Positions 8,582 through 16,997 of a stretch of 64,000 nucleotides of DNA are shown one piece after another (the first letter of the stretch is position 1; every line of letters starts with the position of its first letter). The DNA comes from Candidatus Omnitrophota bacterium. GTDB lineage: Bacteria; Omnitrophota; Gorgyraeia; B26-G9. The position numbers were made by a program, and so were the translations under genes. The notes beneath the pieces are model-generated. The model was not told the origin of the DNA. It saw only the letters and a program-made list of their open reading frames with translations, and made no database searches. The stretch covers positions 89,600 to 153,599 of the forward strand of contig JAZDHZ010000033.1 in assembly GCA_043805415.1 (NCBI GenBank). The letters run 5' to 3'.

Positions 8582-8756
8582 ATATAGGGTTTGAAAATGC
8601 AGAAGGCAATTAATATCTGCAGAAAGGAGGCGCAACTGATAAAATAAACCTGCTGATTTTAGGTTTGTGGGGTCAGAAGCAGTCCTATAATCAGTCAAAC
8701 TGGGAATAAACAACATGGATAAAATTTTAGAGCGAAATTCTTGGGGAAGAATTAGC

Positions 8757-8785
8757 TTGACAGGAAAACATTGTTTTGATAAATA
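8757..8785 (+). promoter_or_regulatory. near-consensus sigma70 promoter of the orphan pilin gene
   Basis: TTGACA (8757-8762), 17-nt spacer ending in TGA (extended -10), TAAATA (8780-8785). GGAGGA Shine-Dalgarno lies before the ATG at 8811. Confidence 0.55.
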
Positions 8786-8810
8786 TATATATATAACTGG
8801 AGGAAATAAA

Positions 8811-9224
8811 ATGAATAGAAAAGGTTTTACACTTGTTGAACTTTTGATGGTAGTTATCATCATTGGTATATTGGTAACGTTGGCTGTTCCAAGTTATTAT
8901 AAGTCAATTGAAAGAGCAAAAGGCGGTAAAGCAAAATCATCTTTACGTACTATCACTAATGCTCAAATACAGTATAGAGCGCTTAATGATACATATGTTA
9001 ATGGTGCTGATTTAACTTTATTAGCTGATGTTGATTTGCCTGCGGAATTACAGGATGGAGCTACTGGAGATGGAGATTGGACATATGCATGTACTTCTAC
9101 TGATATCACTGCGGATGTTCTTACTACAGCTACAAGAAATCTTGGGCCTTATGCTGGTGATACTGTAACAATGGATCAAGATGGCTTCTATATTAATGTT
9201 GATGCCCATCAAGAATGGAACTAA
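8811..9224 (+). CDS. type IV pilin-like protein (prepilin-type N-terminal cleavage/methylation domain)
   Basis: MNRKGFTLVELLMVVIIIGILVTLAVPSYY is a class III signal peptide (G/FTLVE). I moved the start from the listed 8715 to the ATG at 8811 because of the GGAGGA Shine-Dalgarno and the promoter at 8757. Paralog of the pilin at 31225. Confidence 0.8.
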   Translation: MNRKGFTLVELLMVVIIIGILVTLAVPSYYKSIERAKGGKAKSSLRTITNAQIQYRALNDTYVNGADLTLLADVDLPAELQDGATGDGDWTYACTSTDITADVLTTATRNLGPYAGDTVTMDQDGFYINVDAHQEWN

Positions 9225-9265: not shown

Positions 9266-9319
9266 CCACTGATTTATTCGTTTAAAGATTTATTAAATGA
9301 ATAAATCAGTGGTTTTTTT
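9266..9319 (+). terminator. intrinsic terminator after the orphan pilin
   Basis: Perfect 14-bp stem CCACTGATTTATTC / GAATAAATCAGTGG followed by TTTTTTT. Confidence 0.8.
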
Positions 9320-9380
9320 AAACTTATCGAAAGTGTTTGTTTAGTTAGGGGTTTAACGAATTAATTGAGGAGGCGAAATA

Positions 9381-10487
9381 ATGCGGATAATTGCGGTAGC
9401 TAATCAAAAAGGCGGTTGCGGTAAAACAACGACATCAATTAATTTATCTGCTTGTTTAGCCGCGCTTAAAAAAAATGTTTTGTTAATAGACTTAGATCCA
9501 CAGGGACACGCGAGTTTGGGGTTAAATATCCAGCCGCAGGATTTATCAAAAACCATATATAATGTATTGACCACAGATAGCGAAGCCAAATTCCGGCTTG
9601 ATGAAGTTATTATCCCTATATCTGAAAATCTTGATCTGGCTCCGGCAAATATTTTGTTATCCGCGATTGAGCAGGAACTGTCTGGAAAACCAGAAAGAGA
9701 AGCAAAATTATTTCAAGCAATATCTTTAATGGTAAGTAAAAAAACATATGATTATGTAATTATTGATTGCTCTCCAAGTTTGGGTCTTTTGACTTTTAAT
9801 GGATTGCGTGCTGCTACTGAACTGATTGCTCCGGTGGACACTGGATTTTTCTCTTTGCATGGCATAAGCCGTTTACTGGAAACTGTCAATCTTATTGATA
9901 AACGCTTGAATTGTCAGATAAAAGTAAAAGCATTGATCACAATGTTTGATTCCAGAACTAAATTTTCCCATGAAGTAAAAGACGAAATTTATAAATATTT
10001 TTCAGGCAATGTTTTTGAAACAGTAATTCATAATAATGTTAGAGTAAAAGAATCTTCAAGCTATGGGGTACCTGTCGCGGCTTATGATAAGCGCTGCCGA
10101 GGGGCACAAGATTACAGCGCATTAGCCAATGAAGTTGAATCTCCGATGAGCAAGGAAAAAGCTAAAGATAAAACCAGCAGCGCTTCTGAGAAAATAACAT
10201 CTTTTATTCAGGAAGTACAGCAGGTCAAAAAAGGCACAGTAGTTACTTTTAATTCTCTGGACGCGAAAAATGTTGAAATTGCCGGTGATTTTAATAACTG
10301 GGTTAGTTCGGTTGATACTAAACTTGAACGGATTGATAATGGTGTATGGGCTAAAGTGATTCATCTTAAACCCGGTGCTTATAAATATAAATTTGTTGTT
10401 GATGGACAATGGATAACTGATCCCAATAATCCTAAGCTGGAAATTGACGAAGTAGGTAATAAAAATTCGATTTTAGAAGTTAAATAA
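9381..10487 (+). CDS. ParA/Soj-family ATPase fused to a C-terminal AMPK-beta-type glycogen-binding (CBM48) domain
   Basis: Deviant Walker A NQKGGCGKTT, A' LLIDLDPQG, Walker B YVIIDCSPS. The C-terminal ~85 aa are VVTFNSLDAKNVEIAGDFNNW...LKPGAYKYKFVVDGQWITDPNNP...GNKNSILEV. This aligns by eye with the rat AMPK beta1 CBM (VYLSGSFNNW...EGEHQYKFFVDGQWTHDP...NNIIQV). GAGGAGG Shine-Dalgarno. Confidence 0.8.
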   Translation: MRIIAVANQKGGCGKTTTSINLSACLAALKKNVLLIDLDPQGHASLGLNIQPQDLSKTIYNVLTTDSEAKFRLDEVIIPISENLDLAPANILLSAIEQELSGKPEREAKLFQAISLMVSKKTYDYVIIDCSPSLGLLTFNGLRAATELIAPVDTGFFSLHGISRLLETVNLIDKRLNCQIKVKALITMFDSRTKFSHEVKDEIYKYFSGNVFETVIHNNVRVKESSSYGVPVAAYDKRCRGAQDYSALANEVESPMSKEKAKDKTSSASEKITSFIQEVQQVKKGTVVTFNSLDAKNVEIAGDFNNWVSSVDTKLERIDNGVWAKVIHLKPGAYKYKFVVDGQWITDPNNPKLEIDEVGNKNSILEVK

Positions 10488-10507
10488 AAAAACTAGGATT
10501 ATGGTTT

Positions 10508-11425
10508 ATGAATAAATTAAAGAAGTTGGGTAAGGGATTAGAAGACATTTCCTATTTGTTTCTTTCTCCGGAGCAAGAAGATACTATTCAAGAAGAGTCC
10601 ATGGCTGAAAAAAAGAAAATTTTAACTGAAACTATTGAGATTACGACAAAAAACATTTGTTTAATCGGCAATAGCCATGATTCGCGAGATGCTTTTTTAG
10701 TGATTAATTTATCATTAGCTTTGGCTAGACTGGGGATGCGTATCGCGGTAGTTGATATGGATGAGAAGCTTCCTTGTCTAAATTTTTTATTAGGAAAAAG
10801 CGCTAACAATGGATCGCAAAATAATGATCAGGAAATTGTTCGCCAAGGGCCTTTTGGCGTAAAGCTGGCAGGGCTAAATGAGTCTCTGCTTGAAAATATG
10901 TTGGTTGATTCTGTTGCTAGAAAAACAATTATGCTGGAACTGAAAAAAATGGAAGAAGAAGTTGATCTTGTGCTGATTAGTGTATCACAAGATAGCCTTT
11001 ATTATATGAATCCATTGCTTAGAAAATCAATAGAAGAATTTCTAGTTTTTGTTTCTCCGGATAAAAACTCAATGCTTAATTCTTATAAAGTTGTAAAAAC
11101 CATTTTTTCTAATAACCCGGTTGCTAAAATTGGTACGATTATAACTGATATTGAACACATGTATGAAATTGACGCGGTGTTTAATAAAATGTTTTCCGCG
11201 GTAAAGAAATTTCTGGTTAAAGAGCTGTATAAATATGGATTTCTTTTTAAACTAAAACAGGAAATTAATAACAACGCGAATATCGCTTCTTTTTATGACG
11301 CGGATTTGACGGCTTGCATCTCAAATATCGCGCAGATTATTATATTGCGCTTGAACCTTGCGGAAAATGTTAAATCAAGCGGGGAATTATTTAAAAATGT
11401 TTTTAATGAGTTTGGGATAAATTGA
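10508..11425 (+). CDS. MinD/ParA-fold pseudo-ATPase with ParB-N-terminus-like peptide
   Basis: The region ICLIGNSHDSRDAFLVINLSLALARLGMRIAVVDMDEKLPCLNFLLG aligns with the MinD segment SGKGGVGKTT...[16 protein letters not shown]. The P-loop is replaced by GNSHDSRD, with no lysines. The N-terminus is MNKLKKLGKGLEDISYLFLS. Confidence 0.55.
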   Translation: MNKLKKLGKGLEDISYLFLSPEQEDTIQEESMAEKKKILTETIEITTKNICLIGNSHDSRDAFLVINLSLALARLGMRIAVVDMDEKLPCLNFLLGKSANNGSQNNDQEIVRQGPFGVKLAGLNESLLENMLVDSVARKTIMLELKKMEEEVDLVLISVSQDSLYYMNPLLRKSIEEFLVFVSPDKNSMLNSYKVVKTIFSNNPVAKIGTIITDIEHMYEIDAVFNKMFSAVKKFLVKELYKYGFLFKLKQEINNNANIASFYDADLTACISNIAQIIILRLNLAENVKSSGELFKNVFNEFGIN

Positions 11426-11432
11426 GGCTGTT

Positions 11433-12128
11433 ATGACAACGATATTTCACAACGCGCAAATTAATAAAGAAAAACTCAGACAGATTATTTTAAAAAATCC
11501 GCAATCTCTGCTCGCGGGATTAAGTTTTATTGATTTAGAGATGGCTACGGATGAGTCTGGAGTCATTGATTTCTTAGGAGTGGATATAACTGGGCGCATG
11601 GTGGTTGTGAATTTTGATACCCAGGCTAATGACCAGATGCTCATAGAAATATTGTCTCAAATTCAATGGCTCAAAAAAAATGAAGGATTAATCAAAAGGT
11701 TATTTTTTAGTGAGAGCGTGGATTTTGAACAAGCGCCTCAAATGCTTTTGGTTTGTCCTGTTTTTTCCAATAAAATCCAATCAGCGGTAAAACAATTGAC
11801 GGATAAAGATATAAAACTTTTAAAATTTAAATATATTGTCTCAAACGCTGATGACGCGATAATCTTTGACGAGGTATTTTCCAGTATAAATTCAGCCTCC
11901 GCGCCAGCTTTAAAAACTCAACTATCAACTGACCGGGAAAGTATAATGGTTGATCGCGCTGCTTTAACCAAGCACGCGCCGCTAATTAAAAAGACGGTAT
12001 CAGAAATAAGTGAAGACGCGAAAAAAGAACAATCTCCCCTATATGATGTGATTACTCTTACGCCGGAAGAGATTACGGAATTCATGGATTTTAATATAGC
12101 CTTGGCACAGAGCCAAGCAGCTGATTAA
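11433..12128 (+). CDS. hypothetical protein, N-terminal NucS/DUF91-like (PD-(D/E)xK-fold-like) region with degenerate active site
   Basis: SGVIDFLGVDITGRMVVVNFDT resembles the G-x-I-D-L-L-x-x-D-x-x-G-x-x-V-V-V-E-x-K core of NucS-type nucleases. Here the E-x-K reads N-F-D. Acidic C-terminus. The start lies 8 nt after the previous gene, with a GAGG Shine-Dalgarno. Confidence 0.3.
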   Translation: MTTIFHNAQINKEKLRQIILKNPQSLLAGLSFIDLEMATDESGVIDFLGVDITGRMVVVNFDTQANDQMLIEILSQIQWLKKNEGLIKRLFFSESVDFEQAPQMLLVCPVFSNKIQSAVKQLTDKDIKLLKFKYIVSNADDAIIFDEVFSSINSASAPALKTQLSTDRESIMVDRAALTKHAPLIKKTVSEISEDAKKEQSPLYDVITLTPEEITEFMDFNIALAQSQAAD

Positions 12129-12231
12129 GAATAAAACTCTAACCGATTATATAGCTGATCAAATCCTAAATTAAAACCTGCCTGATAATGATTATTAAAT
12201 TTACTACGCAAGTTCTTAGAGGTGAGAAAAT

Positions 12232-12987
12232 ATGCAAGGTGTAAATAGATCATCATCGATCTATAAAATAAATAATTTACTTCCAAACAATATTATATCC
12301 GCTTTTTCCATAGGGAAATTAAATTATGATTATCGTGCTGGGAATGAAAGTGAAGTTCTAAAAAATAGAAAAGATTTTTTTTATCAAGCAGGACTTGCGC
12401 TTGATACTGCTGTTTTTCCCCAACAAGTTCATAAAGCAAACATTCTAAAGGTTGAGCAAAAAGACAAAGGACGTGGCGCGTTTTCTTTCGCGCAGGGCAT
12501 CCCCCAAACAGACGCGTTGATAACTAACGCGAAAGGGATCGCGCTCTGCCTGCTTAGCGCTGATTGTTTGCCGATTATTTTCTATGAAGCAAATGGCAGG
12601 GCAATTGGGATCGCGCATGCCGGATGGCGGGGAATACACGCGGGGATAATTGAAAAAACAATCTTGGCCATGGCCAATGAATTCGCGATTAATCGCGAAG
12701 ATATTAAAGCGTTTTTTGGCCCGGCGATAGGGAGCTGCTGCTATGAAGTTGGCCCTGAGTTTTTAGATATTTTTCCTGAGAATATTAGCGCGCGAAATAA
12801 TAAAACATACCTGGATATTAAAAGCTTAGCTCGGATAAAATGTCTTAGTTCTGGGATTTTTCAGGATTCAATAAATGACGTATCTATTTGTACCAAATGC
12901 AGTAATGACACATTTTTCTCTTATAGATCCGGAGATAATCTCAATCGCCTAATCAGTATTGTGGCTATTGGTGAGCAATGCGGATAG
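12232..12987 (+). CDS. pgeF: YfiH/PgeF-family (DUF152, laccase-domain) protein
   Basis: Family motifs QVHKANI, LSADCLPIIF, GIAHAGWRG and C-terminal CTKC...FFSYR; 251 aa. Confidence 0.8.
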   Translation: MQGVNRSSSIYKINNLLPNNIISAFSIGKLNYDYRAGNESEVLKNRKDFFYQAGLALDTAVFPQQVHKANILKVEQKDKGRGAFSFAQGIPQTDALITNAKGIALCLLSADCLPIIFYEANGRAIGIAHAGWRGIHAGIIEKTILAMANEFAINREDIKAFFGPAIGSCCYEVGPEFLDIFPENISARNNKTYLDIKSLARIKCLSSGIFQDSINDVSICTKCSNDTFFSYRSGDNLNRLISIVAIGEQCG

Positions 12988-13038
12988 ATAGCAATTTCCG
13001 GCTTAGGGAGCTATTTTTTATTTTGACTAATTATCTGC

Positions 13039-13067
13039 TTGACATTTATATGTATCTGTAGTAATTT
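13039..13067 (+). promoter_or_regulatory. sigma70-type promoter of the K/A-repeat DUF4912-like gene
   Basis: TTGACA (13039-13044), 17-nt spacer, TAATTT (13062-13067). These are the same hexamers as the promoter at 3458. Confidence 0.5.
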
Positions 13068-13113
13068 CTTTAAATAGATAATATCTTTTAAATTAACTAA
13101 AAAATTGAAAAAT

Positions 13114-14988
13114 ATGACAAAAAAAATAAGTTTCAAAAAACAAGCAAAAGCTAAAAATACTGTTGCGAAGAAAATTAAAACAGTAGAAAAAAAAGCTTTA
13201 AAAATCAAGGTTGTGAAAACTGCGAAGCCTGCGCGCAAAAAATTAGGTAAGGGCTTGGAAGATATCTCAACCTTGTTTTTGTCTGATATTAAAAAAGACG
13301 CGGTAATTGCTAAGAAAAAAACAATAAAATCCGCGGCTAAAAAAAGTGTAATGCCAAAGGTTAAAAAAGTAAAAAGCGCAAGTGTTAAGACATTAGGCAT
13401 TGCTATAAAAAAATCTCCTAAAAAAATCATTGCAAAGGTTGCTAAAAAACCAGCGGCAGCAAAGGAAATCGTTGCTAAGACTATTGCAAAGGTTGAAACA
13501 AAACCAGCAGTATTAAAGGAAATCGTTGCGCATAAGACTATTGCAAAGGTTGAAACAAAACCAGTGGCAGCAAAGGAAATCGTTGCGCATAAGACCATTG
13601 CAAAGGTTGAAACAAAACCAGCAGTATTAAAGGAAATCGTTGCGAATAAAACTATTGCCAAGGTTGAAAAAAAGGCAACTGCAGTAAATGATAATGTTCC
13701 TAAAAAAACTGTTGCTAAACTTGCTAAAAAAATAGCTGTAGTAAAGGAAAGTATCCCGGAAAAAGTAATCGCGCGTGTTGATGCGAAATTAGACGCGGCA
13801 AAGGATAAAAATCCTGAGAAAACTATGGCTTTAACTGATAAAAAAACTGTAAAAGAGACAACAGGTAAAACACTTGAAAAAATTGCAGTAAAACAAGAAG
13901 AAGCAAAACAAGCAACTTCCAAACCAATTATGAAAATAACAGAGGTGGTAGGGATGGGAACGTTAAAAAAGTCTTCGAAAGCGGTTAAAAAACCAAAGCA
14001 GGATAAACCAGCAGAAAAAAAGAGTACTAAAACAAAAGAGAATAAAAAAACACAAACCTTAGGCCCAATCAGTGATCTGAAGACTTTGTTTAAGAAGAGA
14101 AAAACAGCCGGATTAACTGTTGAGCCGCAGAATATTCAAACAGAGCAAGTTATTGAGGATAGCAAATTTTTTGTTAGTAAGGAAACTGTAAGTCGGATCG
14201 CGGAAGATGAATTTTGTGATTTGCCTGAAGGCTACGGTGATAATAGAATTGTTATTCAGGTTAGGGATCCGTATTGGTTATTTGCTTATTGGGAAGTTTC
14301 TCAGAGAAAATTAAGTTCAGTTGTGGAGAAATATGGTAGTGCTATCCATAACGCAAAAAGAGTACTACGGGTTCATGATATTACATCGGTTGCATTCAAT
14401 GGAAAGAATTCAAACAGTTTTTTTGATATAGCGATTAATGATGTTGCCAAGAACTGGTATGTAAATGTCGGCAATCCTGGGAGAAGTTATTGTATTGATC
14501 TGGGGCTTGTCTTAGCTGATGGGCGTTTTGTCGTGTTTGCTCGTTCAAATTTTGTGACAACTCCGATTGATGGCCCAAGTCTAATAACTGATGAAGAGTG
14601 GATGATTGTTGAAGATGATTTTAACAAGCTTTATGGATTATCTGCTGGATTGGGGATTGGCCTGAGTTCCGGAGAGTTGAGAAGACAAATAAAAACAAAG
14701 ATGAAGAATTTATCATCAGGGATATTGAGTTCACCTGGGGTGACAACAGTGTCTCCGCGTCGTAATTTTTGGATGGTTGTCAATACTGAGCTAATAGTTT
14801 ATGGAGCAACTCAACCAGGTTCTGAACTTACAGTGCAGGGAAAACCGATTAAATTAAATGAAGATGGAACATTTAGTCTTCGTTTTGCCTTGCCTGATGG
14901 AGAGCAGGTCATTCCGGTTCGGGCGGTTTCTCCGGATAAGGTTGAAGAACGGGTAATTACTCCTGTGGTCAAAAAAAACACGGTGTAA
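13114..14988 (+). CDS. Lys/Ala-rich histone-H1-like repeat protein with ParB-like peptide and C-terminal DUF4912-like domain
   Basis: I prefer the ATG at 13114 over the listed TTG at 13105. Residues ~45-60 of the listed ORF are KKLGKGLEDISTLFLS. A K/A/V/P-rich region of ~300 aa follows, with four 18-19-aa tandem repeats. The C-terminal ~250 aa (RIVIQVRDPYWLFAYWEVS ... FWMVVNTELIVYGATQPGSELTVQGKPIKLNEDGTFSLRFALPDG) match my recollection of DUF4912. Confidence 0.65.
   Translation: MTKKISFKKQAKAKNTVAKKIKTVEKKALKIKVVKTAKPARKKLGKGLEDISTLFLSDIKKDAVIAKKKTIKSAAKKSVMPKVKKVKSASVKTLGIAIKKSPKKIIAKVAKKPAAAKEIVAKTIAKVETKPAVLKEIVAHKTIAKVETKPVAAKEIVAHKTIAKVETKPAVLKEIVANKTIAKVEKKATAVNDNVPKKTVAKLAKKIAVVKESIPEKVIARVDAKLDAAKDKNPEKTMALTDKKTVKETTGKTLEKIAVKQEEAKQATSKPIMKITEVVGMGTLKKSSKAVKKPKQDKPAEKKSTKTKENKKTQTLGPISDLKTLFKKRKTAGLTVEPQNIQTEQVIEDSKFFVSKETVSRIAEDEFCDLPEGYGDNRIVIQVRDPYWLFAYWEVSQRKLSSVVEKYGSAIHNAKRVLRVHDITSVAFNGKNSNSFFDIAINDVAKNWYVNVGNPGRSYCIDLGLVLADGRFVVFARSNFVTTPIDGPSLITDEEWMIVEDDFNKLYGLSAGLGIGLSSGELRRQIKTKMKNLSSGILSSPGVTTVSPRRNFWMVVNTELIVYGATQPGSELTVQGKPIKLNEDGTFSLRFALPDGEQVIPVRAVSPDKVEERVITPVVKKNTV
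13447..13671 (+). repeat. in-frame tandem repeat, 54+57+57+57 nt, inside the K/A-rich CDS
   Basis: Units encode KPAAAKEIVAKTIAKVET / KPAVLKEIVAHKTIAKVET / KPVAAKEIVAHKTIAKVET / KPAVLKEIVANKTIAKVEK. The nucleotide copies are near identical. Confidence 0.9.
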
Positions 14989-15020
14989 GTGCTGGAATCC
15001 TTTAACATGCTTTTTAATCG

Positions 15021-15058
15021 CGCCGGAATGAGTATTAACATTCCGGCGTTTTATTTTT
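15021..15058 (+). terminator. intrinsic terminator after the DUF4912-like gene
   Basis: Perfect 10-bp stem CGCCGGAATG / CATTCCGGCG, 8-nt loop, then TTTTATTTTT. Confidence 0.8.
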
Positions 15059-15185: not shown

Positions 15186-16766
15186 ATGGAAAAAGGATAT
15201 CTTTGTATTGTTTTACATGGGCATTTACCTTTTGTTCGTCATCCTGAGCACGCGAATTTCTTAGAAGAAGAATGGCTTTACGAGGCTATAACTGAGACAT
15301 ATATTCCATTGCTTAGTATATTTGATAAGTTGATAGAAGACGGAGTTAATTTTCGGATTACCATGGGTGTATCTCCGCCATTAATATCAATGCTTCTTGA
15401 TCCTTTATTGCAGCATCGTTACATAATGCATATAGAGAAATTAATCGAATTGGCAAGTCGTGAGGTTGAAAGAACAAGATGGCAGCCGGAATTTAATAAG
15501 CTGGCTTTAATGTATCTAAGTAAATTTAATCTTGCCCGATATTATTTTGCCGAAAAACACCGGGGAAATCTTTTAGAGGCATTTAAAAGAATTCAGGATG
15601 CCGGAAGATTAGACATCATGACTTGCGGCGCTACGCATGGGTTTTTCCCATTGATGGATACATGTAGAGATTCAATTCGGGCACAGGTAAGAGCCGCGGT
15701 TGAGCAATATAAAAAAGTATTTCAGCGTCAACCAAAGGGCATTTGGCTGCCTGAGTGTGGATATCATCCTGGTGACGATGAAATCCTGCGGGAAAACGGA
15801 TTAAGATATTTCTTTAGTGATACCCATGGGGTACTTCATGGTACTCCGCGGCCCAAATATGGTGTTTTTGCTCCGGTTTTTTGTAAGTCCGGAGTTGCTT
15901 GCTTTGGACGGGATCTGGAGTCTTCAAAACAGGTTTGGAGCGCTAAGCAGGGATATCCTGGAGATTACAATTACCGGGAATTCTATCGGGATATTGGTTT
16001 TGATCTTGATTTTGATTATATAAAACCGTATATTCATCCAGATGGAATCAGAACAAATACAGGAATAAAATACTATCGGATTACCGGGGAAACCGATAAT
16101 AAACAGCCGTACAATCAAGATGTTGCTATGCAAACAGCGGCATCGCACGCGTCTAATTTTATGTTCAACCGGGAAAAACAGGCGGAGTATGTGAAGGACA
16201 TAATAAAAAGAAAACCGATTATTGTCGCTCCCTATGACGCGGAGTTATTTGGACACTGGTGGTATGAAGGCCCGGATTGGCTTAATTTTTTAATTAGAAA
16301 AATTGCTTTTGATCAAAAAAATATCAAACTTATTTCGCCATCGGATTACTTAGATGAATATCCGAAAAATCAAGTTATTACACCTTCACTTTCCAGTTGG
16401 GGATATAAAGGTTATGCCGAGTTTTGGCTGGAAGGTTCAAATGCCTGGGTTTACAGGCATTTACATAAAGCTTCTGAGCGGATGAGTGAATTAGTTAAGC
16501 TTTATCCCAATGCCGGCGGTTTGACGCTTAGGGCGCTGAACCAGGCTTTGCGTGAAGTATTACTTGCCCAAAGTTCTGACTGGGCTTTTATTATGAAAAC
16601 CGGGACACATGTTTCTTATGCTGTGGATAGAACCAAAAAACATGTGCTTAATTTTACAAAATTATACAATCAGATAAAGGCAGATAATATTAAAGAACAG
16701 TGGCTGAGTGAAATTGAGTCAAAAGATAATATATTTCCTGACATTGATTATCATTACCATTCTTAA
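15186..16766 (+). CDS. GH57-family 1,4-alpha-glucan branching enzyme
   Basis: LHGHLPFVRHPE at the N-terminus, nucleophile region IWLPECGY, acid/base region APYDAELFGHWWYEG. The C-terminal helical region resembles Thermus/Thermococcus GH57 branching enzymes; 526 aa. Confidence 0.8.
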   Translation: MEKGYLCIVLHGHLPFVRHPEHANFLEEEWLYEAITETYIPLLSIFDKLIEDGVNFRITMGVSPPLISMLLDPLLQHRYIMHIEKLIELASREVERTRWQPEFNKLALMYLSKFNLARYYFAEKHRGNLLEAFKRIQDAGRLDIMTCGATHGFFPLMDTCRDSIRAQVRAAVEQYKKVFQRQPKGIWLPECGYHPGDDEILRENGLRYFFSDTHGVLHGTPRPKYGVFAPVFCKSGVACFGRDLESSKQVWSAKQGYPGDYNYREFYRDIGFDLDFDYIKPYIHPDGIRTNTGIKYYRITGETDNKQPYNQDVAMQTAASHASNFMFNREKQAEYVKDIIKRKPIIVAPYDAELFGHWWYEGPDWLNFLIRKIAFDQKNIKLISPSDYLDEYPKNQVITPSLSSWGYKGYAEFWLEGSNAWVYRHLHKASERMSELVKLYPNAGGLTLRALNQALREVLLAQSSDWAFIMKTGTHVSYAVDRTKKHVLNFTKLYNQIKADNIKEQWLSEIESKDNIFPDIDYHYHS

Positions 16767-16770
16767 AAAC

Positions 16771-16968
16771 AAAAGCAGTTATGAATTACTAGTTATGAGT
16801 TACGAGTGAAAAGCAAAGAGCTGAAACAGTTCGTAAAGGCCAAAGGTCAATATTCAATAGCTAATGGTCGATAGAAAAAAAAGAAAGAAAAAAGCATATT
16901 GAATTATTTATCATTTAGTGTTTTTTCGCGATACGCGATACGCGCGACGCAATACAGAAAACAGAAGA
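16771..16968. repeat. mosaic tandem-heptamer 3'-UTR element, copy C
   Basis: Lies 5 nt after the GH57 stop. AGTTATG AATTACT AGTTATG AGTTACG AGTGAAA (16777-16811). AGCAAAGAGCTGAAACAGTTCGTAAAG module, shared with copy A. GGTCAAT ATTCAAT AGCTAAT GGTCGAT (16845-16872). CGCGATA CGCGATA CGCGCGA CGCAATA CAGAAAA CAGAAGA (16927-16968), shared with copy B. Confidence 0.85.
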
Positions 16969-16997
16969 CAAATGTTTTCTGTTTTCTTTAGTTTTTT
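16956..16997 (+). terminator. intrinsic terminator at the end of repeat copy C
   Basis: AGAAAACAGAAGAC (16956-16969) pairs with GTTTTCTGTTTTCT (16974-16987), about 14 bp including one G-U pair. TTAGTTTTTT follows. Confidence 0.65.

What the first reader, a model, noticed from the sequence alone, without database searches (positions are those of the whole stretch)
13114..14988. Histone-H1-like K/A repeat region joined to a DUF4912-like domain, directly upstream of GH57
The N-terminal ~300 aa are Lys/Ala/Val/Pro-rich and include four nearly identical 54-57-nt in-frame repeats (13447-13671). The composition is like AlgP/Hc1/PhaF-type polyanion- or DNA-binding tails. The C-terminal half (RDPYWLFAYWEV ... 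LIVYGATQPG..L.V.G..I.L..DGTFSLRF) matches what I remember of DUF4912. I also recall that family as a frequent neighbour of GH57/alpha-glucan genes, and that adjacency is directly visible here. By analogy with PhaF, which links PHA granules to the nucleoid, this protein could bridge glucan granules and DNA. It also carries the ParB-like peptide.
Basis: partly seen in the sequence, partly recalled or inferred. Interest (0 to 1): 0.6.

Follow-up and report, generated by a model that had tools for sequence, protein, structure and literature searches.

The report
Lysine-tailed partner of glycogen branching enzyme
This is a real gene for a two-part protein: a long lysine-rich tail carrying a short ParB-like docking peptide, joined to a conserved domain that is always encoded just before a GH57 glycogen-branching enzyme. 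Together with a nearby ParA ATPase that has its own glycogen-binding module, it may belong to an undescribed system for tethering or distributing glycogen granules.

Summary
ORF 13114-14988(+) encodes 624 aa. It has a disordered polycationic N-terminal part (28% Lys, net +64) with a 57-nt in-frame repeat array. Next come DUF4912 (Pfam E=8e-38) and a second FN3-like beta-sandwich, with a GH57+BE_C branching enzyme directly downstream.

New findings:
1. DUF4912 followed by GH57 is a near-obligate gene pair. It holds in 85/85 Omnitrophota genome loci and 75/80 metagenome loci (the other five run off the contig), and also in Bacillota and Nitrospirota.
2. Across the family, the N-terminal position holds a Rho_N module or a basic tail.
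3. The "ParB-like" peptide KKLGKGLEDISTLFLS is the signature N-terminus of the partner gene next to a Soj-type ParA fused to an AMPK-type glycogen-binding CBM48 (9381-10487).
4. DUF4912 proteins carry this peptide only in the clade where that ParA operon lies directly upstream. There it stays almost unchanged while the rest of the tail diverges.

Best reading (confidence about 0.5): a granule- or branching-enzyme-bound adaptor with a nucleoid-binding tail and a docking tag for ParA-CBM48, acting in glycogen granule tethering or positioning. No binding activity has been tested. The fold is generic FN3. The tag was gained in a single evolutionary event.

I found no literature on this. I rate it a new variant of known ParA-cargo and PhaF/AlgP-type systems.

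The parts
13114..14988 (+). Complete ORF, 624 aa: polycationic tail, then DUF4912, then a second beta-sandwich
13114..14232 (+). N-terminal part, about 373 aa, Lys-rich (net about +64) and predicted mostly disordered. pLDDT is below 50 except aa 168-232, which are predicted as three helices at pLDDT 71-80.
13237..13284 (+). ParB-like peptide KKLGKGLEDISTLFLS (aa 42-57), the putative docking/activating tag for ParA-CBM48
13419..13817 (+). 57-nt (19-codon) in-frame tandem repeat array. The near-identical core is 13429-13673 (unit about KEIVAHKTIAKVETKPAVL) and the flanking units are degenerate.
13933..13980 (+). Second conserved island in the tail (KITEVVGMGTLKKSSK; consensus KKTEVxRM..KKS)
14059..14100 (+). 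Third conserved island (LGPISDLKTLFKKR; consensus LxPISELKxLFKKK)
14233..14589 (+). DUF4912 domain (aa 374-492), an FN3-like beta-sandwich with an inserted helix. It contains the conserved RDPYWLFAYWE motif.
14791..14961 (+). C-terminal beta-sandwich (aa 560-616), Glucodextran_B-like at 26.9 bits against a cutoff of 27. 83 of 116 family representatives match this model at E<1e-3.
15020..15049 (+). Intrinsic-terminator-like hairpin (11-bp stem, 7 G-C pairs) followed by a T-run, between the DUF4912 gene and the GH57 gene
15186..16766 (+). GH57 + BE_C alpha-glucan branching-enzyme homologue, the conserved downstream partner gene
9381..10487 (+). Soj-type ParA ATPase (Walker A NQKGGCGKTT) fused to a C-terminal AMPK-beta-type CBM48 glycogen-binding module
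10508..11425 (+). Degenerate MinD/ParA-like protein without a Walker A motif. Its N-terminus (10520-10567) is KKLGKGLEDISYLFLS. It is the conserved partner of ParA-CBM48.
11433..12128 (+). Third conserved gene of the ParA-CBM48 trio, weakly NucS_C-like

Best explanation
The gene encodes a cytoplasmic, two-part accessory protein of the GH57-type alpha-glucan (glycogen) branching enzyme.

C-terminal half (DUF4912 plus a second FN3-like sandwich): this is the family-defining module. I infer that it binds the branching enzyme or the glucan particle that enzyme builds.

N-terminal part (about 370 aa): a disordered polycation. I infer that it binds nucleoid DNA, or another polyanion, non-specifically. 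Other family members have a Rho_N module or a shorter basic tail at this position.

Embedded peptide (aa 42-57, KKLGKGLEDISTLFLS): this is the same peptide that forms the N-terminus of the partner protein encoded beside a Soj-type ParA fused to a glycogen-binding CBM48, 2.6 kb upstream on the same strand. I infer that it docks onto and activates that ParA. The DUF4912 protein would then mark glucan granules, or the enzyme on them, as clients of a nucleoid-based, ATP-driven ParA system that tethers, spaces or partitions glycogen granules. In effect it would combine a PhaF/AlgP-type tether and a McdB/ParB-type ParA partner in one polypeptide.

Shown here: domain content, composition, the gene pairing, sharing of the peptide, its selective conservation, and its co-occurrence with the adjacent ParA operon.

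Inferred: every binding activity and the cellular role.
For: 1. Link to GH57.
- GH57+BE_C lies downstream on the same strand in 85/85 Omnitrophota genome loci, 84 of them directly downstream; in L020 it lies 3.6 kb away.
- The same holds in 75/80 metagenome loci seeded with a Rho_N-type relative. The other five have less than 300 bp of contig left.
- It also holds in Bacillota and Nitrospirota MAGs.
- The median gap outside the ParA clade is 39 bp.
- Other neighbours include further GH57 genes, GlgA-type Glyco_transf_5, DUF3536, AmyA-gluTrfs_C, NTP_transferase and PGI.

2. N-terminus as a polyanion or nucleic-acid module.
- The tail has net charge +64, has no hydrophobic segment, and has pLDDT below 50.
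- Family-wide, 35/116 representatives have Rho_N and one matches HC2.
- 121/139 representatives have an extension of at least 40 aa, and 90 of these have net charge of +5 or more.

3. Peptide as a ParA-CBM48 tag.
- The strict motif is at residues 3-20 in 39/44 homologues of the downstream partner gene. All of these lack a Walker A motif.
- The motif recurs at the N-terminus of the gene after ParA-CBM48 in distant loci that have no DUF4912 nearby: L086 has MDKKLGKGLDQLSQVF and L088 has MERKRLGRGIEDISNIF.
- In DUF4912 proteins the motif is found in 11/18 distinct loci with the ParA operon upstream and in 0/66 without it.
- It stays almost unchanged in orthologues whose tails range from 172 to 339 aa and are otherwise barely alignable.
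- The two copies in the window differ at synonymous sites, so they are not a recent duplication.

4. The ParA.
- It is Soj-like (8RAY 1e-57, TtSoj, HpSoj). The Arg of NVRVKES aligns with NVRL(S/A)E of the Soj proteins.
- Its CBM aligns with the AMPK beta2 CBM at E=3e-11, with FNNW, YKF, DGQW and Asn retained.
- Equating that Arg with a DNA-binding residue of Soj, and those CBM residues with the AMPK glycogen-binding site, rests on my own knowledge.

5. Literature principle. [quoted passage not shown]

6. Transcription. No strong terminator lies between 9313 and 15020, and there is a strong one at 15020-15049. In the ParA clade the gap between the DUF4912 and GH57 genes widens to a median of 214 bp. 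This is consistent with the gene having been drawn into the ParA unit.
Against: - No binding was tested.
- The tag sits 41 residues from the N-terminus, not at it.
- Its 'ParB-likeness' could not be shown statistically. The single peptide and a 13-sequence profile gave nothing significant against PDB sequences, and tblastn against plasmids gave nothing. The resemblance rests on the LG[KR]GL core as I know it from ParB N-termini.
- On a neighbour-joining tree the tag-bearing proteins form one inner clade, with one loss (L010). The co-occurrence is therefore a single evolutionary event and the Fisher p-values are not independent evidence.
- Basal members of the clade have the ParA operon adjacent but no tag. 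ParA-CBM48 trios also exist far from any DUF4912 gene.
- An unrelated PgeF gene lies between the ParA trio and this gene.
- The near-identical repeats are private to this genome, so copy number is probably not functional in itself.
- These organisms are uncultured, and glycogen granules have not been seen in them.
Confidence: 0.5

Rival explanations
1. It is a non-catalytic subunit, scaffold or regulator of the GH57 branching enzyme and nothing more. The two FN3-like domains bind the enzyme. The basic tail binds the product, phosphate-bearing glucan or polyphosphate, or simply keeps the complex soluble. The LGKGL peptide has a role unrelated to ParA.
For: - The gene pair is near-obligate, with gaps of 5-100 bp typical of co-translated partners.
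- FN3-like folds are common protein-protein modules.
- 18/139 family representatives have almost no N-terminal extension and 17 have non-basic ones, so the tail is dispensable for the core function.
Against: - It does not explain why the N-terminal position is so often filled by Rho_N or a strongly basic tail.
- It does not explain why the peptide is the same as the conserved N-terminus of the ParA-CBM48 partner, nor why it appears only where that operon is adjacent.
Confidence: 0.25
2. The ParA-CBM48 trio is primarily a chromosome or cell-cycle system. It would be a Soj whose ParB-type partner has been replaced by the tag-bearing pseudo-ATPase. The DUF4912 protein would then be a secondary client that couples glycogen metabolism to chromosome segregation or division, rather than a granule-positioning factor.
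For: - The ATPase domain is closest to chromosomal Soj/ParA structures.
- Source databases call it a 'chromosome partitioning protein'.
- The trio occurs away from glucan genes in other lineages.
- The third gene has a weak nuclease-fold (NucS_C) signal, which suggests DNA binding.
Against: - The CBM48 keeps the residues that align with the AMPK beta CBM motifs.
- No ParBc/HTH protein or parS-type feature is present in the operon.
- No ParB gene was found in any fetched locus. These loci cover only 10-20 kb each.
Confidence: 0.12
3. It is a nucleic-acid-binding regulator, a 'Rho-like' factor. Through Rho_N or the basic tail it would control transcription or translation of the adjacent GH57 gene.
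For: - Rho_N is present in 35/116 family members.
- A 2026 paper flags Rho_N-DUF4912 proteins as 'Rho-like' in cyanobacteria (PMC13613805).
Against: - There is no RNA-binding CSD-like domain and no ATPase domain, as the same paper notes.
- The conserved part consists of two beta-sandwiches with no HTH.
- This reading does not explain the ParA tag.
Confidence: 0.06
4. The long tail is largely neutral low-complexity expansion by replication slippage in an AT-rich genome, and the repeat array has no function of its own.
For: - The near-identical 57-nt units occur only in this genome. Relatives at 84-86% identity have only degenerate versions.
- Tail length varies from 172 to 339 aa among orthologues.
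Against: - Three short islands inside the tail are strongly conserved across that variation.
- Positive charge is maintained across the family.
Confidence: 0.3

Closest known systems
PhaF / PhaM (PHB granules) and AlgP (polyphosphate granules): storage-granule-to-nucleoid tethers with histone-H1-like tails
   Same: They are bipartite: one module is for the granule or its enzyme and one is a Lys/Ala-rich polycationic tail. Their cargo is a storage polymer. PhaM also partners the polymerising enzyme, as this protein may partner the branching enzyme (review PMC13052382).
   Different: - There is no sequence relationship: no Pfam hit in the tail at E<=0.01.
- The tail is N-terminal rather than C-terminal.
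- It is K/A/V/T-rich with only 4% Pro, rather than made of KPAA/AAKP repeats.
- The cargo would be alpha-glucan.
- It also carries a putative ParA tag, whereas no ATPase is known for the Pha/AlgP systems (the review lists them as 'ATP-dependent? Unknown').
[quoted passage not shown]
   Same: A short conserved peptide rich in Lys sits in a disordered region, is grafted onto a cargo-binding protein, and is encoded near a nucleoid-type ParA. The LG[KR]GL[DE] core resembles chromosomal ParB N-termini (own knowledge). The principle is stated in PMC7993993 and PMC10241942.
   Different: - The peptide is internal (aa 42-57).
- There is no ParBc/HTH domain and no homology to McdB or PomX.
- The ParA itself carries a cargo-binding module (CBM48).
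- Two different proteins in the locus carry the same tag, and one of them is a dead ParA-like protein.
[quoted passage not shown]
   Same: They share the conserved DUF4912 + Glucodextran_B-like C-terminal half and the position directly upstream of GH57+BE_C.
   Different: The N-terminal module is Rho_N in those proteins. Here it is a 370-aa Lys-rich tail with the ParA tag and a recent repeat array. At 624 aa, this protein is among the longest listed: only one of the 150 representatives is longer (682 aa), and none of the 120 hits.
CBM48 / AMPK beta-subunit glycogen-binding module (relevant to the upstream ParA fusion)
   Same: E=3e-11 to the AMPK beta2 CBM, with the aligned FNNW, YKF, DGQW and Asn positions retained.
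   Different: It is fused to a ParA ATPase rather than to a kinase scaffold, phosphatase or glycoside hydrolase.

Membership tests
DUF4912 (PF16258) | Match to the family HMM above the gathering threshold | tested here: met
   129.8 bits against a cutoff of 29.4, E=7.9e-38, aa 374-492 covering profile positions 1-116 of 118
DUF4912 (PF16258) | Family-typical C-terminal second beta-sandwich (Glucodextran_B-like) | tested here: inconclusive
   26.9 bits against a cutoff of 27. 83/116 family representatives match at E<1e-3. The AF2 model shows a confident beta-sandwich there.
DUF4912 (PF16258) | Genomic pairing with GH57+BE_C directly downstream (an empirical feature found here, not part of the Pfam definition) | tested here: met
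   GH57+BE_C is at 15186-16766. The pairing holds in 85/85 and 75/80 sampled loci and in Bacillota and Nitrospirota.
Rho_N-DUF4912 architecture | N-terminal Rho_N (PF07498) domain | tested here: not met
   No Rho_N hit at E<=0.01 in this protein. It is present in 35/116 relatives.
Histone-H1-like bacterial tails (Hc1/Hc2, AlgP, PhaF/PhaM C-termini) | Sequence similarity to those families, or their KPAA/AAKP-type Lys/Ala/Pro repeats | tested here: not met
   No Pfam family other than DUF4912 and Glucodextran_B at E<=0.01. Pro is only 4.3% and the repeat unit is KEIVAHKTIAKVETKPAVL. The resemblance is in charge and disorder only.
Histone-H1-like bacterial tails (Hc1/Hc2, AlgP, PhaF/PhaM C-termini) | Non-specific DNA or polyanion binding | not testable with these tools
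   Only composition (net +64) and predicted disorder are available.
ParB / Spo0J | ParBc (CTP-binding) domain and HTH centromere-binding domain | tested here: not met
   No ParBc or HTH hit. The protein is not a ParB.
ParB / Spo0J | N-terminal ParA-activating peptide with the LG[KR]GL core | tested here: inconclusive
   The core is present at aa 44-48. Peptide and profile searches against PDB sequences and plasmids gave nothing significant. The comparison with ParB rests on my own knowledge.
ParA/MinD partner proteins (ATPase-activating proteins) | Conserved, positively charged peptide in a disordered N-terminal region | tested here: met
   KKLGKGLEDISTLFLS is almost unchanged in 11 orthologues within an otherwise divergent tail of low pLDDT. 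It starts at residue 42, not at the very N-terminus.
ParA/MinD partner proteins (ATPase-activating proteins) | Encoded with a cognate ParA/MinD ATPase and co-distributed with it | tested here: met
   ParA-CBM48 lies 2.6 kb upstream on the same strand. The tag is present only in loci with that operon: 11/18 against 0/66. This reflects a single gain.
ParA/MinD partner proteins (ATPase-activating proteins) | Binds the ATPase dimer and stimulates ATP hydrolysis | not testable with these tools
   No multimer prediction or biochemistry is available. Chimeric inputs are not accepted by the structure tool.
Carbohydrate-binding modules (glycogen/starch-binding) | Similarity of the DUF4912 half to a known CBM family by sequence or fold | tested here: not met

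The most novel reading that the evidence does not exclude
Some bacteria may position or partition glycogen granules with a dedicated ATP-driven ParA system. In this reading the ParA carries its own glycogen-binding CBM48. Granule-borne DUF4912 proteins are the general link between GH57-made glucan and the nucleoid, and in this clade they also carry the ParA-activating tag, so they would act as activator and tether together. That would add a fourth class of storage or metabolic body, after carboxysomes, PHB granules and polyphosphate granules, to those organised on the nucleoid. It would also give DUF4912 a function.
Probability: 0.3. Interest if true: 0.85.

Novelty: new variant of a known kind. 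Interest (0 to 1): 0.62.

Why it matters
How bacteria organise and inherit glycogen granules is essentially unaddressed. A 2025 review of bacterial organelle positioning never mentions glycogen. I found no paper linking ParA-like ATPases to glycogen granules. Only two papers in the searched library mention DUF4912.

This locus offers testable parts:
- a domain of unknown function tied to the GH57 branching enzyme across several phyla;
- a ParA ATPase with a built-in glycogen-binding module;
- a 16-residue tag shared by two candidate partners.

If the model holds, DUF4912 gets a function. The PhaF/AlgP 'histone-tail tether' idea and the McdAB 'ParA plus tagged partner' idea would be joined in one system. 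The tag-plus-CBM pair could also be a compact tool for positioning polysaccharide bodies in engineered cells.

If it fails, the DUF4912/GH57 pairing still identifies a likely unknown subunit or regulator of GH57 branching enzymes.

Tried and rejected
- Statistical test of 'ParB-likeness'. The peptide alone and a profile of 13 tags against PDB sequences gave only one chance-level hit (E=1.6). tblastn of the peptide against plasmids found nothing. No ParB gene was present in any fetched locus for a direct comparison.
- Recent duplication as the origin of the second tag. Rejected, because the two DNA copies differ at many synonymous positions.
- Secreted or cell-surface protein (FN3 and Glucodextran_B hints). 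Rejected, because there is no hydrophobic signal or TM segment; the maximum 19-residue Kyte-Doolittle mean is 1.36, and it lies inside the folded domain.
- Rosetta-stone fusion of DUF4912 with GH57. None among 116 representatives.
- Other glycogen genes in the window. The larger ORFs scanned are housekeeping genes (GlmU, not GlgC; DnaB, BamA, LpxC-FabZ and others).
- Fisher tests of tag against ParA adjacency. Kept only as description, because the tree shows a single gain.
- Structure jobs. The first full-length job failed and was rerun.
- An early count of 12/21 tag-bearing loci was corrected to 11/18 after removing a duplicate locus (L004 = L019).
Full report
**What is there.**

The + strand is open from 13105 to 14988. 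The ATG at 13114 gives a 624-aa protein.

- The first 330 residues contain 95 K+R against 30 D+E. The rest of the protein has net charge -4.
- The 329-aa stretch before the conserved part is K 27.7%, A 13.4%, V 10.0%, T 9.1%, I 7.9% and only 4.3% P. It is Lys/Ala/Val/Thr-rich, not Pro-rich.
- Tandem Repeats Finder reports a 57-nt (19-codon) period at 13429-13673, with 4.4 copies at 86% matches. Read with a 114-nt period, matches are 91%.
- Degenerate units extend the array to 13419-13817.
- Pfam places DUF4912 at aa 374-492 (E=7.9e-38, 129.8 bits, cutoff 29.4). It places a Glucodextran_B-like segment at aa 560-616 (26.9 bits, cutoff 27).
- The next gene, 15186-16766, is GH57 plus the branching-enzyme C-terminal domain BE_C.
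- The peptide KKLGKGLEDISTLFLS is at aa 42-57.
- The antisense ORF 13011-13922 is the Phe/Leu/Ser-rich mirror of the Lys-rich coding strand. I regard it as spurious.

**Who has it.**

- The closest homologues are 'DUF4912 domain-containing proteins' of Candidatus Omnitrophota MAGs.
- An upstream protein is 100% identical to one on a 234-kb NCBI Omnitrophota contig.
- An exhaustive search finds 6062 cluster representatives at E<=1e-3. Members are named from Bacillota, Syntrophothermus, Nitrospirota and Ca. Ozemobacter.
- Of 116 diverse representatives, all match DUF4912, 83 match Glucodextran_B, 35 carry an N-terminal Rho_N domain and one matches the chlamydial histone-like HC2.
- Of 139 representatives with a recognisable domain start, 121 have an N-terminal extension of at least 40 aa (median 107). 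Of those, 90 have net charge of +5 or more.
- The family plan is therefore a variable, usually basic or Rho_N-type N-terminus followed by a constant DUF4912 plus beta-sandwich. This protein has one of the longest and most highly charged tails.

**Structure.**

- An AlphaFold model of aa 330-624, built on a 70-sequence alignment, gives two confident beta-sandwiches (pLDDT above 90) joined by a poorly predicted linker.
- A sequence profile finds no solved relative.
- The full-length model has pLDDT below 50 for nearly all of aa 1-374. The exception is three helices at aa 168-232, with pLDDT 71-80.
- There is no hydrophobic segment that could act as a signal peptide or membrane anchor.
- The fold neither supports nor excludes glucan binding. 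It fits protein-protein binding equally well.

**The GH57 link.**

- Omnitrophota genome loci: in 85 loci (five from exact look-ups, 80 from a scan of species-representative genomes), a GH57 branching-enzyme homologue lies downstream on the same strand in all 85. It is directly downstream in 84 and 3.6 kb away in L020.
- Metagenome loci: a second scan, seeded with a Rho_N-type relative, gave the same arrangement in 75 of 80 loci. The remaining five have less than 300 bp of contig after the gene.
- Other phyla: a Bacillota contig has Rho_N-DUF4912 followed after 16 bp by GH57+BE_C, and a Nitrospirota contig has the same pair.
- Other neighbours: in ten other contexts, the surrounding genes include seven more GH57 proteins, a GlgA-type Glyco_transf_5, DUF3536, AmyA-gluTrfs_C, an NTP_transferase and PGI.
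- Only two papers in the searched library mention DUF4912. One calls the cyanobacterial Rho_N-DUF4912 proteins 'Rho-like' and leaves their function open.

**The peptide and the ParA.**

The upstream genes on the same strand are:

- 9381-10487: a ParA (AAA_31, E=3.5e-53) with a C-terminal AMPK1_CBM/CBM48 (E=3.8e-16).
  - Its ATPase part is closest to Soj-type ParAs (8RAY 1e-57; T. thermophilus and H. pylori Soj). The Arg in NVRVKES aligns with NVRL(S/A)E of the Soj proteins. From my own knowledge this is the region of the DNA-binding arginine of B. subtilis Soj.
  - Its CBM aligns with the AMPK beta2 CBM (E=3e-11), with FNNW, YKF, DGQW and an Asn retained. From my own knowledge these are the glycogen-contacting positions.
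- 10508-11425: a degenerate MinD/ParA-like protein (CbiA E=1.6e-3). Its Walker A motif is replaced by GNSHDSRDAF and its N-terminus is MNKLKKLGKGLEDISYLFLS.
- 11433-12128: a weakly NucS_C-like protein.
- 12232-12987: PgeF.

The six-frame translation of the window contains the LG[KR]GL..[ILVM] pattern only twice, in the pseudo-ATPase and in the DUF4912 protein.

Evidence that the peptide is the mark of a ParA-CBM48 partner:

- Among 44 homologues of the pseudo-ATPase, 39 have the strict motif at residues 3-20.
- The ParA-CBM48 fusion is widespread.
- In distant loci with no DUF4912 or GH57 nearby, the gene after it again starts with the peptide: L086 has MDKKLGKGLDQLSQVF, L088 has MERKRLGRGIEDISNIF, and L087 has a degenerate form.

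**Distribution of the tag in DUF4912 proteins.**

- The ParA-CBM48 block lies directly upstream of the DUF4912 gene in 18 distinct loci, all in the clade with at least 58% identity to the window protein. Eleven of these DUF4912 proteins carry the tag.
- None of 66 loci without the block carries it.
- In the metagenome set, the one tag-bearing protein (L095) is the one locus with ParA-CBM48 in its flank.
- On a neighbour-joining tree of the DUF4912 half plus GH57, the ParA-adjacent loci are monophyletic. The tag-bearing ones form a single inner clade with one tagless member, L010.
- The likely history is adjacency first, then one gain of a long tail with the tag, then one loss. The Fisher p-values therefore describe one event and are not independent evidence.
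- The better evidence is selective conservation. Across eleven orthologues with tails of 172 to 339 aa, the tails are otherwise barely alignable, yet LGKGLxDISxLFLS stays almost unchanged. Two further islands are also kept: KKTEVxRM..KKS, and LxPISELKxLFKKK.
- The two tag copies in the window differ at many synonymous sites, so this is not a recent copy.

**Transcription signals.**

- Terminator-like hairpins lie at 9266-9312, 15020-15049 and 16956-16987.
- The stronger hairpins are all outside 9313-15019; the only same-strand matches inside it are two short ones within coding sequence, at 9830-9845 and 14505-14524.
- The gap between the DUF4912 and GH57 genes has a median of 214 bp in ParA-adjacent loci and 39 bp elsewhere.
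- This is consistent with the DUF4912 gene having been detached from GH57 and attached to the ParA unit in this clade. That is an inference.

**Mechanism proposed.**

[quoted passage not shown] Storage granules of PHB and polyphosphate are tethered to the nucleoid by proteins with histone-like tails (PhaM, PhaF, AlgP), for which no ATPase is known (PMC13052382).

The protein studied here would combine both ideas:

- a conserved module tied to the glucan branching enzyme;
- a polycationic tail for the nucleoid;
- a tag for a ParA that itself binds glycogen.

I put about 0.5 on this overall. I am more confident in the functional association with GH57 (about 0.85) than in the ParA link (about 0.55) or in DNA binding (about 0.5).

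**What weakens it.**

- No binding was tested.
- The fold is generic.
- The tag is internal rather than N-terminal.
- Its similarity to ParB N-termini could not be shown statistically.
- The gain of the tag is a single event.
- Basal clade members have the adjacent ParA but no tag.
- ParA-CBM48 trios occur far from glucan genes.
- The near-identical repeats are private to this genome, so their number is probably not functional.
- No other glycogen gene was seen among the larger ORFs of the window that I scanned.

**Novelty.**

The protein is an ordinary member of a known domain family of unknown function. Three things appear undescribed in the searched literature:

- the obligate DUF4912-GH57 pairing;
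- the ParA-CBM48 fusion with its tagged partners;
- the appearance of that tag inside a histone-like tail.

I class it as a new variant of known kinds: ParA-cargo systems and nucleoid tethers of storage granules.

Noticed in passing
window 9381-10487 (+): A Soj-type ParA ATPase is fused to an AMPK-beta-type CBM48 glycogen-binding module. The fusion is widespread in metagenomes: nearly all of the best 120 hits have both parts, including one from Schekmanbacteria. I found no literature on it.
   Followed up: partly
window 10508-11425 (+): A MinD/ParA-like protein has lost its Walker A motif (GNSHDSRDAF in place of KGGxGK[ST]), as have all 44 homologues. It carries the ParB-like tag at its N-terminus. 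It looks like a dead ATPase acting as partner of a live one.
   Followed up: partly
window 11433-12128 (+): This is the third conserved gene of the ParA-CBM48 trio. It is weakly NucS_C / PD-(D/E)xK-like (NCBIfam NucS 2e-6 over aa 12-65). It has a conserved acidic-aromatic C-terminal motif (T.EE..EF..F) that is also seen in L086 and L087.
   Followed up: no
window 13933-13980 and 14059-14100 (+): Two further short conserved islands sit in the otherwise hypervariable tail: KKTEVxRM..KKS, and LxPISELKxLFKKK. The second loosely resembles the tag (LG..S.L..LF). Their function is unknown.
   Followed up: partly
window 13615-13809 (+), aa 168-232: This is the only part of the tail that AlphaFold predicts with moderate confidence (three helices, pLDDT 71-80). 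It corresponds to the degenerate repeat units that are conserved in L006 and L007, not to the near-identical ones.
   Followed up: no
window 9266-9312, 15020-15049, 16956-16987 (+): Terminator-like hairpins at these three sites bracket 9313-15049 as one possible transcription unit and set GH57 apart. Inside 9313-15019 the only same-strand matches are two short ones within coding sequence. The gap between the DUF4912 and GH57 genes has a median of 214 bp in ParA-adjacent loci and 39 bp elsewhere.
   Followed up: partly
window 8715-9224 (+); also L001-L004 and L086: A type IV pilin-like gene (N_methyl, ComP_DUS) sits directly upstream of ParA-CBM48. It does so even in an Omnitrophota locus (L086) where DUF4912 and GH57 are elsewhere. 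This synteny is conserved and unexplained.
   Followed up: no
L020 10873-14474: This is the only locus where GH57 is not the next gene. About 3.6 kb is inserted between the DUF4912 gene and GH57.
   Followed up: no
L119, L139, L151, L166, L131 (downstream of the GH57 branching enzyme): In several other lineages a second GH57-family gene (about 553-568 aa; 802 aa in L131) directly follows the GH57+BE_C gene, making a DUF4912-GH57-GH57 cassette.
   Followed up: no
window 13011-13922 (-): This 303-aa antisense ORF is rich in Phe, Leu and Ser. It is the reverse-complement artefact of the Lys-rich (AAA/AAG) coding strand and not a gene.
   Followed up: yes
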